This document shows positions 1 to 3,000 of a DNA stretch of 7,640 nt, one piece after another. Positions within the stretch are counted from its first letter, which is position 1, and each line of letters begins with the position of its first letter. Made by a program: the position numbers. This stretch comes from a virus (lineage: Duplodnaviria; Heunggongvirae; Uroviricota; Caudoviricetes). Location of the stretch: positions 1 through 7,640 of the IMG/VR virus record IMGVR_UViG_2703718860_000003. One strand, 5' to 3'.

Positions 1-3000
1 GAGCCGGAAGCTGCATCCGTAGCGGAAACCGATGGTAAAGCCTTTCCTCAGCCAGCAGGTGTTGCGTTACCAGTCCAGGAAACGACGACACAGGAAGAAA
101 TGAAAACAGAAATCGTGGAAGACATTGTGAAGTTACAGCCATCGGTCACCGAAACGAAAGCAGATGACCTGATTCTACCATCGCTGCATGTGGCTAACCG
201 CGAGCTGCGCCGGGCAAAAGGTCAGGTTCAGAAGTGGGAGCGAGTCTGTGCCGCTCTGCGGGAGCTGAACAAGTGCCGGGATATTCTCCGGGATATTACC
301 GCCACCAGAGAGCAGCAGTGAGTGGCTGGAAGAAGTGGTGCCGGGCTGAAATCCTGATACTCCGTCAGTGTGCGGGAACTATGAAGGTGAAAAGCATTGG
401 CGCACTTATCGGACGAACTGAAGCGGCAGTGAGAACGAAGGCACGGGAGCTGGGCATCAGTATGATGTTACGTGGTGATTTTCACCAGTCAGCAAAATAT
501 TCTCAGCGTGATATTGAGCTGGCGCGGCAACTGCATCAGAGAGGCATGCAAAGAAGGGAAATTGCCAGAAAATTAGGCATGCCGCTGCGCATAGTGAATA
601 ACTACGTTTATTTCGACAGGAGGGTTCAGGCGTGAGGGTGAGAATTTATATCGCCGGTCCGATGACGGGATATGAAAATTTCAACCGTGAGGCGTTTCAC
701 AAGGCGGAAGAAGCACTGAAACAGGAAGGGCATACCGTATTAAATCCCGCAGTACTTCCGGACGGGCTGACTCAGCCACATTACATGGATATTTGCATGG
801 CGATGATTCGTTGTGTGGATGCGGTTTACATGCTGAAAGGCTGGCAGCGGTCGGCAGGCGCTAAGGCAGAACTGGCACTGGCGGAGAAACTGGGACATGC
901 GGTTATTTTCCAGGAGGCAACCAGTGAGCGAAATTAATTACCAGGAACTACGGCAGGTGAAAGAGAAAGTATAATCCAGAACTGAATAATTAAAATCAGC
1001 ACTGTAAATAAAAATTAATCCTTAACCGGAGGGATTTCTGCACCCTCAGAACATCAGGAGACCGCCTGAAAGGGCGGTAATGAAAAATGACTGAATTAAC
1101 CAAAGAGCAATTAATCAAAGAAGCCAAATTAAAAATAGCGGTTGCAAAATGTTACCCTAATTCAGAGATGGCCTGGGTAGAGGGCGAGCTATTCAAAATT
1201 GCACTGGCATCGCTGGAAGCGGTTCCGGTGGCATGGCTGCATTCAGACAATGGCCTGGGTATTCCAGCAATAACCAGGAGTAAAAACGTTGCTGATAGTT
1301 GGTTATCAAAGGGCTGGTATGTTCAGCCGTTATATGTAGCCCAACCAGTACCGGTGGTGCCGGATGCTCGTCCATCTTTAAATAATGGCATTGTCGGATT
1401 TGATGAAGGCTGGAATGCCTGCCGGGATGCCATGCTTAATGGAGATAAATCATGATTAATCGTATCAAGCTGGAGCACATCCTCGAATATGCCAGGCAGC
1501 AGAAATGTATTGGGCAACTTTGTAAAATTCCACCAGGGGATATGGTTGAGATCATGGAAATAGCTATGCGTCAGGCTGGCAACTTTCAGGTAATTCCTGA
1601 TGACGGTCGCGAACAGTTCGAAGCGCTTATCAGGTTCTATGCGGATGATAAAAACCATGCAACATTGTTGCTTCGTGCTAACGAAGGGATGAATTACCGG
1701 GATCCAAATGTGGATTTGGCGTGGATATTCTGGAAATCCAGTCGAGAGCACATATTGCCTGGAAAAAGCGACAATAATCCAGCATCAGGCGATCAGGTAA
1801 GTGAATTAACAATGTGGGTGAAGCGGTTATCTCATTCCTTAAAAAGCGTTAATAAATCAAGCAAACTACCGGATAAAGCGATGGACTACCTGAAGCGAAA
1901 CGGACTGATAAGCGCGGAGGATATTTTACGATGACCTGGCCTGAGGCATTCGTGGCGGTAGGAATTGCAATGGCGGTGGCGCTGGTGGTGTATTCGATTT
2001 GCCGCTGGGGATGATAAGTGGAATAGTGCGGGGTATTGTGCGCCCCGCTGATTTGATTATTTATTTGGGGAGATAATGTCCTGAAGCGTGGCGATTACTT
2101 CTTCGTCTGTATCTGTATTTCGGAGTTGATATGTAATATCTTCGTTTCTAATAATTTGCATTACAAGCCATTCTCCATTTTTTTCACGTAAGTGAACAGT
2201 ACTGTTTTCCGATATACCATGAACGGTCATTTTTATACCTTTTGTGTTGTGTGAGCGATCAATATAGTCAGAAATGAGACAAGTGAAAGGACATAGAAAA
2301 TAATAGTTTGTTTTTGTAGAATTGCTGCGGGTGCTTGAGGCTATCTGCCTCGGGCATGAACACCAACGGCAGATAGATAAAAGCCCCACCCGACTATAAA
2401 TCGAAGTGAGGCCCCTATATGCTCGTCACATATAGATTGCCTCTTACGGACCGAAAGGTCAAGGAGAAGCAGACTATGAAGCAGCAAAAGGCGATGTTAA
2501 TCGCCCTGATCGTCATCTGTTTAACCGTCATAGTGACGGCACTGGTAACGAGGAAAGACCTCTGCGAGGTACGAATCCGAACCGGCCAGACGGAGGTTGC
2601 TGTCTTCGTAGACTACGAATCTGAGAAGTAAGAGTGACCAGGCGAGGGAGAAATCCCTCGCCACCTCTGATGTGTCAGGCATCCTCAACGCACCCGCACT
2701 TACCCCGTTTCGGCAGACTTTGTTTTTTCCTGGCATTCTGGTTTACAATTCGCGCGTCAGCCTGAACAACTGGCACCTGCTGCGTCACCGGAGAACCCGA
2801 TGGCGCAACATATAAAATCCCACAATTCTGAAGTCGATCCGACCATTAAGCGGGGGCGGCGTTCACACGTATTTAAAACTGACTGGTACCAGCATGACCC
2901 ATGCACTGAAGAACAGGCCGAATGGCTGATCCAGTGTTACCGCAGGCGCGGATATGAGTTTGAGAAAGCCCTCAGCTTCGATCGTCGTCACTGGATAATC

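What the first reader, a model, noticed from the sequence alone, without database searches (positions are those of the whole stretch)
2300..2730. Intact hok-type type I toxin locus with 15-bp complementarity between its 5' leader and 3' end
A Hok-family toxin gene (2476-2631) has an in-frame upstream reading frame with its own ribosome-binding site (ATG 2419, mok-like). Nucleotides 2326-2340 are the reverse complement of 2683-2698 with one bulged base. This is the arrangement used by plasmid R1 hok/sok, where 5'-3' pairing of the full-length mRNA keeps it translationally silent until 3' processing. The closest relative I recall, K-12 hokD/relF, sits behind relBE, whereas here the toxin has a stand-alone leader. 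The antisense Sok-like RNA expected on the minus strand across about 2390-2470 could not be pinned down: a TTGACC -35-like hexamer exists on the minus strand (complement of 2457-2462) but has no convincing -10.
Basis: partly seen in the sequence, partly recalled or inferred. Interest (0 to 1): 0.7.

Follow-up and report, generated by a model that had tools for sequence, protein, structure and literature searches.

The report
Prophage hok/sok toxin-antitoxin cassette
This is an intact copy of the well-known hok/sok "host-killing" toxin-antitoxin cassette carried by a lambda-like prophage of E. coli; its toxin is identical to the already characterised HokW, so the finding is correct but ordinary.

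Summary
Hok (2476-2631, Pfam HOK_GEF E=4e-23), the in-frame mok ORF (2419-2631) and the 5'/3' complementarity (2326-2340 vs 2683-2698, one bulged C) are all at the stated coordinates. The complementarity beats chance (0-3 of 2000 shuffles).

The R1-style interpretation is supported. Across 80 distinct homologous loci from Escherichia to Photorhabdus, the following are 95-98% paired with compensatory changes:
- the tac/fbi stem
- the alternative tac/ucb stem
- the ucb/mok-SD stem
- the metastable 5' hairpin

One three-way coupled covariation links 2332, 2692 and 2356.

- Only about 12 of the 15 bp (from 2329) are conserved and probably transcribed.
- Sok most likely runs 2427 to about 2372 on the minus strand.
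- Its promoter is TTGACC-N17-CAATCT (2462->2434). This is homologous to the experimentally mutated sokW -10 and has the same layout as the sokC group.
- The closest relative is hokW-sokW of Stx phage Sp5, not K-12 hokD. The toxin is 100% identical and tac and fbi are identical, but the Sok/target segment differs.

This exact sok module occurs in 590 of 5426 complete E. coli genomes. Nothing here is new in kind. Interest is low.

The parts
2317..2322 (+). hok promoter -10 (TAGAAT). The only -35-like hexamer is a weak TAGAAA at 2294-2299, which lies outside the conserved cassette.
   Evidence: Promoter scan. A TAnnAT hexamer sits at a fixed distance from GGG in all relatives. Homology with relatives starts at about 2316.
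2329..2340 (+). tac element, the 5' end of the hok mRNA (GGGUGCUUGAGG). The inferred transcription start is 2329 or 2330.
   Evidence: The Rfam RF01794 model starts here. It pairs with fbi in the full-length fold and with ucb in the truncated fold. R1 numbering G4/C5/T6 comes from PMC9841398.
2331..2357 (+). Metastable 5' hairpin of the nascent transcript (2331-2341 paired with 2347-2357).
   Evidence: Fold of 2329-2360 gives -18.8 kcal/mol. 98.5% of cells are paired and 4 of 11 pairs are compensatory.
2381..2393 (+). ucb / anti-SD box. It pairs with the mok SD region (2401-2412) in the full-length mRNA and with tac (2329-2336) after 3' truncation.
2372..2427 (-). Predicted Sok antitoxin RNA (about 50-56 nt). 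It has a 15-nt stretch 5' of the conserved GCCUC hairpin core (about 9 nt of it unpaired in the predicted fold), a hairpin and a UUUUAUCU tail. It is antisense to the mok SD and start codon.
   Evidence: Fold gives -21.4 kcal/mol, z = -4.6. Position inferred from promoter homology. Ends not mapped.
2434..2462 (-). Sok promoter: -35 TTGACC (2462->2457), 17-nt spacer, -10 CAATCT (2439->2434).
   Evidence: Alignment with 65 variants. The Sp5 sokW 'pro-less' primers YO-421/422 mutate the homologous TAACCT. The generic scan does not report it.
2408..2411 (+). mok Shine-Dalgarno sequence (GAGG).
   Evidence: Invariant GAGGC in 80 sequences.
2419..2631 (+). mok reading frame (70 codons). Here it is in frame with hok.
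   Evidence: The ATG is conserved in 81 of 83 loci. The frame is variable across the family.
2439..2443 (+). dcb (GCCUC). It pairs with the mok SD (GAGGC 2408-2412) in the truncated, active mRNA.
   Evidence: The helix is 100% paired across the family (helix 3). Rfam consensus structure.
2476..2631 (+). hok toxin gene (51 aa), with GGAG at 2463-2466 as its SD.
   Evidence: Pfam PF01848 E=4e-23. 100% identical to the Sp5-type HokW.
2641..2662 (+). 9-bp hairpin just after the stop codon. It is the likely protective 3' stem-loop of the truncated mRNA.
   Evidence: I5. 97.4% paired and 5 of 9 pairs compensatory (helix 5). The role is inferred from R1.
2683..2695 (+). fbi element (CCUCAA-C-GCACCC), complementary to tac with C2689 bulged.
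2700..2729 (+). Degenerate remnant of the hok terminator (ACCCCGTTTCGGCAGACTTTGTTTTTT).
   Evidence: Relatives have ACCCGC-TTCG-GCGGGTTTTTT. The window shows no stable fold and no terminator hit.

Best explanation
Window 2316-2729 is a complete hok/sok-type type I toxin-antitoxin cassette. It is an allele of hokW-sokW inserted in the early-right ('nin') region of a lambdoid E. coli prophage.

Proposed mechanism, with each step marked shown or inferred:

1. A weak constitutive promoter (-10 at 2317-2322) starts the hok mRNA at about 2329. This is inferred.

2. While the mRNA is being made, the 5' tac sequence is held in a metastable hairpin (2331-2357). The fold and covariation are shown. The timing is inferred.

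3. In the finished mRNA, tac (2329-2340) pairs with fbi (2683-2695). This lets ucb (2383-2393) sequester the mok ribosome-binding site, so the mRNA is neither translated nor bound by Sok. The structure and covariation are shown. The consequence is inferred from plasmid R1.

4. Slow 3' trimming removes fbi. Tac then re-pairs with ucb, the mok SD pairs with dcb (2439-2443), and ribosomes translating mok open the hok start. The in-silico refolding is shown. The processing and translational coupling are inferred.

5. A short, unstable antisense RNA, Sok, is made from TTGACC-N17-CAATCT on the minus strand and covers about 2427 to 2372. It binds the refolded leader across the mok SD and AUG and triggers its destruction. 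This is inferred.

6. When Sok supply stops, the 51-aa Hok peptide is made and damages the inner membrane. Toxicity and membrane location were shown experimentally for the identical HokW protein in the literature, not tested here.

The likely biological role, by analogy with hokW-sokW, is to speed growth arrest or lysis after prophage induction, and/or to stabilise the prophage.
For: Toxin and leader:
- Hok domain. The toxin is 100% identical to the Sp5-type HokW.
- HokW toxicity, its neutralisation by sokW, its inner-membrane location and its induction after mitomycin C are published (PMC8621323).
- Primers YO-351 and YO-350 of that paper are identical to window 2327-2376 and 2669-2693.
- Rfam RF01794 matches 2329-2478 at 104.6 bits against a gathering score of 59.

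Folds:
- The full-length fold closes 5' to 3' and pairs ucb with the mok SD (z = -6.1).
- The truncated fold switches to tac/ucb plus SD/dcb (z = -6.8).

Covariation in 80 distinct loci:
- tac/fbi: 95.6% paired, 4 of 12 pairs compensatory.
- tac/ucb plus leader hairpin: 83.5% paired.
- Metastable hairpin: 98.5% paired. ucb/SD: 98.3% paired. Compensatory pairs number 4 of 11 and 4 of 9.
- Three-way coupled change at 2332/2692/2356: T/A/A in 71 loci, C/G/G in 10.
- Cognate tac/fbi duplexes beat non-cognate ones, -24 against -15 kcal/mol.

Sok:
- The Sok promoter is homologous to the mutated sokW -10 and laid out like the sokC group.
- The predicted Sok folds as tail, hairpin and U-tract.

Maintenance:
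- The exact sok module is kept at 99% identity or more in 590 of 5426 complete E. coli genomes.
Against: - There are no expression data for this allele.
- The Sok -10 (CAATCT) lacks the first T of the family consensus, and the generic promoter scan does not report it.
- The hok -35 is poor and lies outside the conserved cassette.
- The intrinsic terminator that follows fbi in most relatives is destroyed here by about five substitutions. How the mRNA 3' end forms is therefore unknown.
- The NCBIfam Hok models score below their curated cut-offs (53.6 against 73), although Pfam is far above its own.
- Many chromosomal hok loci are known to be inactive.
Confidence: 0.88

Rival explanations
1. The cassette is a decaying, functionally silent relic. 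The ORFs and RNA elements are still readable, but the promoters and terminator no longer work, as in several K-12 chromosomal hok loci. Neither Hok nor Sok would then be made in meaningful amounts.
For: - The Sok -10 has lost its first T (CAATCT against TAAyCT).
- The terminator stem is destroyed.
- The hok -35 is weak.
- Some relatives are clearly disrupted: L016, L129, L008, L111 and L041 lack fbi, or fbi together with tac.
Against: - All twelve tac/fbi pairs, ucb, dcb, the mok SD and AUG, the hok ORF and the Sok hairpin are intact.
- The same sok module is conserved at 99% identity or more in 590 genomes.
- The sokC group uses the same TTGACC-N17-CAnTCT layout.
- Sp5 hokW lacks the terminator altogether yet is functional.
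- The -35 here (TTGACC, 5 of 6) is better than that of Sp5 (TTGCCT).
Confidence: 0.1
2. The 5'/3' complementarity is a chance match or a DNA-level inverted repeat marking the ends of a mobile cassette. It would not be an RNA structure.
For: The complementarity lies close to both homology borders of the cassette, about 2316 and 2727. In the E. coli group it extends 3 bp upstream of the likely transcription start (helix 1).
Against: - 0 to 3 of 2000 shuffles reach the observed energy.
- There are compensatory changes, G-U wobbles and a three-way covariation with the metastable partner. Selection on DNA ends would not produce these.
- The conserved part starts exactly at the predicted +1.
Confidence: 0.01
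3. The molecular mechanism is the same, but the role differs. The cassette would act mainly as an anti-phage abortive-infection module or a prophage-addiction module, rather than as a lysis helper.
For: R1 hok/sok reduces T4 plating, and type I toxin-antitoxin systems are implicated in prophage maintenance (literature cited). hok genes are about four-fold enriched in prophages.
Against: The only direct experiment on the identical toxin in a prophage shows faster growth arrest and twice as many released phage on induction. hok genes are not enriched next to defence systems (section title). Nothing here discriminates between these roles for this allele.
Confidence: 0.3

Closest known systems
hokW-sokW of Sakai prophage 5 / 933W-type Stx2 phages (Takada et al. 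2021, PMC8621323)
   Same: - The Hok protein is 100% identical over 51 aa.
- The tac, metastable hairpin, ucb and fbi sequences are identical or nearly so. The published primers match 2327-2376 and 2669-2693 exactly.
- The mok layout is the same, and both are carried by lambdoid prophages.
   Different: - The segment 2388-2438 (Sok body, Sok 5' tail and its target, the first mok codons) is unrelated or shorter. Sok has a 28-nt hairpin here against 49 nt in Sp5.
- The Sok 5' tail pairs at -28.4 kcal/mol with its own leader but only -10.1 with the Sp5 leader. Antitoxin specificity is therefore probably different.
- The Sok promoter is TTGACC-N17-CAATCT here and TTGCCT-N17-TAACCT in Sp5.
- The insertion site differs: the nin region here, next to an EaA-like gene in the Stx2 phage.
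hok/sok (parB) of plasmid R1
   Same: The regulatory architecture is the same: tac/fbi, ucb, dcb, metastable hairpin, mok, cis-antisense Sok with its promoter inside mok, and a protective 3' stem-loop (for the definitions; for the window).
   Different: - The toxin is only about 24 of 51 residues identical. This comparison used an R1 sequence recalled from memory. The paper gives 44% for HokW against Hok.
- mok is in frame with hok here but in the +1 frame in R1-like loci.
- The leader is about 25 nt shorter.
- The host element is a prophage, not a plasmid.
- The terminator is degenerate here.
K-12 hokD (relF), Qin prophage
   Same: 47 of 51 residues are identical. NCBI's pipeline names near-identical genes 'hokD'. 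The fbi and downstream sequence are homologous.
   Different: K-12 hokD matches only from window position 2462 onward. It therefore lacks tac, ucb, mok and Sok. The window has the complete leader.
Chromosomal hokC/sokC (gef) group
   Same: The Sok promoter layout is the same, TTGACC-N17-CAnTCT without the T upstream. mok is in frame and the Sok hairpin is short.
   Different: 40 of 51 residues are identical. fbi pairs through G-U wobbles (UCUUCAACGCACCC). The K-12-type copy is disrupted just after the gene (L016).

Membership tests
[quoted passage not shown] | Small membrane toxin with a Hok/Gef domain | tested here: met
   PF01848 at 81.1 bits, E=4.3e-23, cut-off 22.
[quoted passage not shown] | Overlapping leader ORF (mok) with its own SD upstream of hok | tested here: met
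   GAGG at 2408-2411 and ATG at 2419. The ORF runs through hok. The ATG is conserved in 81 of 83 homologues.
[quoted passage not shown] | Long-range tac/fbi pairing of the mRNA 5' and 3' ends, maintained by covariation | tested here: met
   12 bp, 2329-2340 with 2683-2695. 95.6% paired and 4 of 12 pairs compensatory. Shuffles and slid controls are far lower.
[quoted passage not shown] | Alternative structures: ucb/mok-SD in the full-length mRNA; tac/ucb and SD/dcb in the truncated mRNA; a metastable 5' hairpin | tested here: met
   Folds. Pair counts (helix 3). Coupled three-way covariation.
[quoted passage not shown] | Match to the curated RNA model of the hok leader/sok region | tested here: met
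   RF01794 at 104.6 bits against a gathering score of 59, full length 1-157. The match is on the hok-sense strand.
[quoted passage not shown] | Cis-encoded antisense Sok RNA expressed from a promoter inside mok | tested here: inconclusive
   A homologous promoter is present (TTGACC-N17-CAATCT) and the predicted RNA has a tail, hairpin and U-tract. However, the -10 is sub-consensus, the generic scan does not report it, and no transcript data exist.
[quoted passage not shown] | Toxicity of Hok, antidote activity of Sok, 3' processing, RNase III cleavage of the duplex | not testable with these tools
   Shown in the literature for the identical HokW protein with its own sokW and for R1. Not shown for this allele.
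hokW-sokW (Sp5) allele | Identical toxin and identical antitoxin/target sequence | tested here: not met
   The toxin is 100% identical. The Sok region 2388-2438 differs, and cross-pairing of the 5' tails is weak. It is the same toxin with a different Sok specificity module.
K-12 hokD/relF arrangement | hok CDS without its own leader, mok or Sok | tested here: not met
   The window has the full leader. K-12-type loci align only from 2462 onward.

The most novel reading that the evidence does not exclude
In every annotated lambdoid context examined, the cassette is co-oriented with the adjacent phage early genes. In five of them (the window's twin, Rac, PPompW, mEp460, Evi) those are the early rightward genes. 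In the Stx2 phage it is co-oriented with the adjacent EaA-like and neighbouring ORFs.

Prophage induction could therefore trigger Hok through antiterminated early transcription reading through the cassette in the sense direction. That transcription would occlude the convergent, weak Sok promoter. It would also produce hok RNA whose tac is no longer at a free 5' end.

This would explain the RecA-dependent disappearance of sokW that Takada et al. left unexplained. The decayed hok terminator and the distinct Sok specificity of this allele would then be adaptations to life inside an operon and alongside other hok/sok copies in the same genome.
Probability: 0.25. Interest if true: 0.45.

Novelty: already known. 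Interest (0 to 1): 0.1.

Why it matters
It matters little as a discovery. hok/sok, its mRNA folding pathway, its coupled covariations and its abundance in prophages are all published.

The practical value is in annotation:
- Reference annotations label only the 51-aa gene, and sometimes call it 'hokD' or 'gef'.
- Under the 99-base sok segment searched (2372-2470) no feature is annotated in any of the listed genome records, and that segment is present at 99% identity or more in 590 complete E. coli genomes.
- The Rfam 'sok' model reports the hok-sense strand, which can mislead strand assignment.

The allele pairs the HokW toxin with a different Sok/target module. That could be used to test antitoxin specificity and cross-talk among the several hok/sok copies that share a genome.

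Tried and rejected
- Chance origin of the complementarity: rejected.
- All 15 bp being part of the RNA helix: rejected. The outer 3 bp are poorly conserved and lie upstream of the likely start.
- Other minus-strand promoters: the generic scan reports only TTAACA-N16-CATAGT at 2500->2473. This lies inside hok, is not at the family's Sok promoter position, and was not pursued.
- Search for an intrinsic terminator after fbi: none found.
- NCBIfam naming: the Hok models fall below their curated cut-offs, so no equivalog name can be assigned.
- My first manual registers for the SD/dcb stem and the metastable hairpin were each off by one base. They were corrected from the fold output.
- One fold call exceeded the size limit and one script failed on a file name. 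Both were rerun.
- MAFFT shifts the 5' half of the Photorhabdus fbi by one column. The tool's counts for pairs 2335-2340 therefore understate pairing. The alignment-free duplex analysis shows perfect 12-bp helices there.
- I did not run the large protein-database or structure searches, because the protein is identical to a characterised one.
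Full report
**The observation.**
The window contains a 51-codon ORF at 2476-2631 and a 70-codon ORF starting at ATG 2419 in the same frame. The short product is a Hok/Gef toxin (Pfam PF01848, 81.1 bits, E=4.3e-23). GAGG at 2408-2411 precedes ATG 2419 by 7 nt.

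Positions 2326-2340 (TGCGGGTGCTTGAGG) are the reverse complement of 2683-2698, apart from one extra base, C2689. The 15-mer's best duplex with the 110 nt after the stop codon is -27.3 kcal/mol, and none of 2000 dinucleotide shuffles reaches it. For the 12-mer starting at 2329 the value is -21.1 kcal/mol, reached by 3 of 2000 shuffles. TTGACC is indeed the reverse complement of 2457-2462.

**What it is.**
Rfam's RF01794 ('sok') matches 2329-2478 on the plus strand over its full length, at 104.6 bits against a gathering score of 59. The model's consensus begins GGGUGCUUGAGG and ends on the hok AUG. It therefore describes the hok mRNA leader in the sense orientation, and the real Sok lies on the other strand.

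The window is 99.6% identical to a prophage of E. coli CP55_Sichuan. There the gene is annotated 'Hok/Gef family protein', between replication genes and the DUF968/RusA/Q-like genes, the methylase and three tRNAs. Related copies occur in 4734 of 5426 complete E. coli genomes, with a median of 2 and up to 11 per genome, and in 101 phage records.

The toxin is 100% identical to the HokW of 933W/Sp5-type Stx2 phages. It shares 47 of 51 residues with K-12 HokD and 40 of 51 with HokC. Takada et al. 2021 (PMC8621323) showed four things for HokW:
- HokW is toxic.
- sokW, expressed from its own promoter, neutralises it.
- HokW goes to the inner membrane.
- After mitomycin C, sokW disappears in a RecA-dependent way and HokW is made.

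Their primers YO-351 and YO-350 are identical to window 2327-2376 and 2669-2693.

**The RNA switch.**
The minimum-energy fold of 2329-2725 pairs 2329-2340 with 2683-2695. Inside that closure it pairs 2383-2393 (ucb) with 2401-2412, which contains the mok SD (z = -6.1).

When fbi is removed (2329-2682), the 5' end pairs instead with 2381-2387. GAGGC 2408-2412 then pairs with GCCUC 2439-2443 (dcb), around a CUAUAUG/CAUAUAG stem that holds the mok AUG (z = -6.8). This is the consensus structure of the Rfam model.

The first 32 nt alone form an 11-bp hairpin, 2331-2341 with 2347-2357. These are the full-length, truncated and metastable conformations defined for R1 hok mRNA (PMC9841398).

**The covariation test.**
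I collected 130 related loci. I reduced them to 88 unique full-length sequences and aligned 83 that were not obviously disrupted (alignment A1, 80 distinct rows).

| Helix | Cells paired | Compensatory pairs |
|---|---|---|
| tac/fbi | 95.6% | 4 of 12 |
| tac/ucb plus leader hairpin | 83.5% | 3 of 20 |
| Metastable 5' hairpin | 98.5% | 4 of 11 |
| ucb/mok-SD | 98.3% | 4 of 9 |
| Hairpin after the stop codon | 97.4% | 5 of 9 |

Over all helices counted together, controls with the partner slid by 1-3 columns are 38-61% paired.

Without relying on the alignment, Photorhabdus loci have GGGCGCUUGAGA with UCUCAAGCGCCC, a perfect 12 bp. Citrobacter has GAAG with CUUC. The Photorhabdus tac pairs at -24 kcal/mol with its own tails and at -15 with E. 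coli tails.

Position 2332 changes together with both its fbi partner 2692 and its metastable partner 2356. The combination T/A/A occurs in 71 loci, C/G/G in 10, and mixed combinations in 2. Position 2332 is the bulged base in the tac/ucb fold. This is the pattern expected for one sequence that serves several structures.

The five loci that lack the pairing have foreign sequence after the gene or a damaged 5' end. They lie upstream of the likely start, which is set by the conserved -10 TAGAAT at 2317-2322 and by the start of the Rfam model.

**The antitoxin.**
On the minus strand the family shows a -35 (TTGCCT or TTGACC), 17-18 nt, then a -10 of TAAyCT. Next comes a variable 15-20 nt, then a hairpin starting GCCUC and ending GGGGC, followed by UUUU. 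In Sp5 the 'pro-less' construct that abolishes protection changes exactly that TAACCT (primers YO-421/422).

The window has TTGACC (2462->2457), 17 nt, then CAATCT (2439->2434). The first T of the -10 is missing, while the A at position 2 and the T at position 6 are kept. The hokC/sokC group has the same layout (TTGACC-N17-CACTCT).

A start about 7 nt downstream gives an RNA running from 2427 to about 2372. It folds into roughly 9 unpaired nucleotides at the 5' end, a long hairpin and a U-rich tail (-21.4 kcal/mol, z = -4.6). It covers the mok SD and AUG.

This promoter does not pass the generic scan. Expression is therefore inferred, not shown. The 99-nt module 2372-2470 is at least 99% identical in 590 complete E. 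coli genomes, including O157:H7 and O55:H7 strains, and is never annotated. That argues against recent decay.

**How this allele differs from the published one.**
Compared with the Sp5 leader, 2329-2387 and 2439-2478 are nearly identical, but 2388-2438 is different. The Sok hairpin is 28 nt instead of 49. The 15-nt Sok 5' tail pairs at -28.4 kcal/mol with its own target and -10.1 with the Sp5 target. The reciprocal values are -23.9 and -6.8.

The short hairpin is almost identical to that of some Photorhabdus and Citrobacter loci. It is therefore probably the older form.

The mok frame is not conserved across the family. It is in frame in 61 of 83 loci, in the +1 frame giving 55-68 codons in 12, a 19-codon ORF in 8, and the start is lost in 2. 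This fits a role in translational coupling rather than a functional Mok protein.

**Weak points.**
- Most relatives have a clean terminator (ACCCGC-TTCG-GCGGGTTTTTT) right after fbi. The window and its twin carry about five substitutions that destroy the stem. The Sp5 type has no terminator at all and still works.
- The hok -35 is poor, and homology with relatives begins only at about 2316.
- NCBIfam Hok models are below their cut-offs.
- None of these removes a defining element. They do leave room, about 10%, for a silent relic.

**Context and role.**
In the window's twin, Rac, PPompW, mEp460 and Evi, the cassette sits between the replication genes and ydfU/rusA/Q. It is co-oriented with them, and the cargo just upstream varies: a 57-aa ORF here, Paa adhesin, an acetyltransferase. 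This suggests, but does not show, that early read-through transcription on induction could silence the convergent Sok promoter. That would account for the unexplained RecA-dependent loss of sokW.

**Novelty.**
Each element of this finding is already published:
- hok/sok, tac/fbi and the folding pathway.
- hokW-sokW.
- A catalogue of 44,248 Hok homologs, with four-fold enrichment in prophages.

The finding is a correct identification of a known system. Only the allele-level details are unreported as far as I could see: the different Sok specificity module, the CAATCT -10 and the decayed terminator. Interest is 0.1.

Noticed in passing
window 2700-2729: The intrinsic terminator that follows fbi in most hok loci (ACCCGC-TTCG-GCGGGTTTTTT) is destroyed here by about five substitutions, although the T-run and downstream flank are kept. 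The 99.6% twin (L001) shares this. The hok transcript may read through into ORF 2800-3072.
   Followed up: partly
window 2609-2623: The Tyr47 codon UAC followed by G sits in a CUACGAA heptaloop on a 4-bp stem (2609-2612 with 2620-2623) in the predicted full-length fold. This looks like the tRNA-Arg anticodon loop that TadA edits, which would give Tyr-to-Cys recoding. yUACGAA is nearly invariant and the stem covaries across the family. The motif is described in bioRxiv 10.1101/2025.08.07.668861.
   Followed up: partly
window 2329-2478: Rfam RF01794, named 'sok antitoxin', matches the hok-sense strand and ends on the hok AUG. It models the hok mRNA leader, so hits report the strand opposite to the real Sok RNA.
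   Followed up: yes
window 2388-2438 vs L003: The cassette is mosaic relative to Sp5 hokW. The flanks and toxin are identical or nearly so. The Sok body, 5' tail and target are replaced by a shorter version that is almost identical to the Sok hairpin of some Photorhabdus (L036, L033) loci.
   Followed up: partly
window 2057-2230 (- strand): A 57-aa ORF with no family match lies just upstream of hok on the opposite strand and is annotated hypothetical in the twin genome. The same slot holds different cargo in other phages: Paa adhesin in PPompW, an acetyltransferase in Evi, and a 1.3-kb minus-strand gene in mEp460.
   Followed up: partly
window 6728-6979: There are three tRNA genes (CAT, TCG, TCT anticodons) downstream of the Q-like gene and a DNA methyltransferase (5629-6687). 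ARAGORN calls the first Met, while RefSeq calls it Ile in the twin genome. In the twin the next genes are TerB and DUF3927 proteins.
   Followed up: no
L015, L023, L050; hit H17: Near-identical E. coli-type hok sequences appear on tiny contigs (275-431 bp) of Acinetobacter idrijaensis and Xanthomonas pisi assemblies, in a gut MAG, and in an 'Actinobacillus phage' record. The tiny contigs look like assembly contamination rather than genuine distribution.
   Followed up: no
L027-L043 (Photorhabdus loci): Photorhabdus genomes carry many hok/sok copies. Several loci come from each assembly, and some show a second partial copy within 700 bp (L030, L041, L043). All have a perfect, unbulged 12-bp tac/fbi.
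   Followed up: no
L016 and L129: Two loci, including the hokC locus of a K-12-like chromosome, share the same foreign sequence (…GAACCATCTGAAGAATGCGACGCC…) starting shortly after the hok stop. It replaces fbi. This is consistent with an insertion that inactivates the 5'-3' closure.
   Followed up: no
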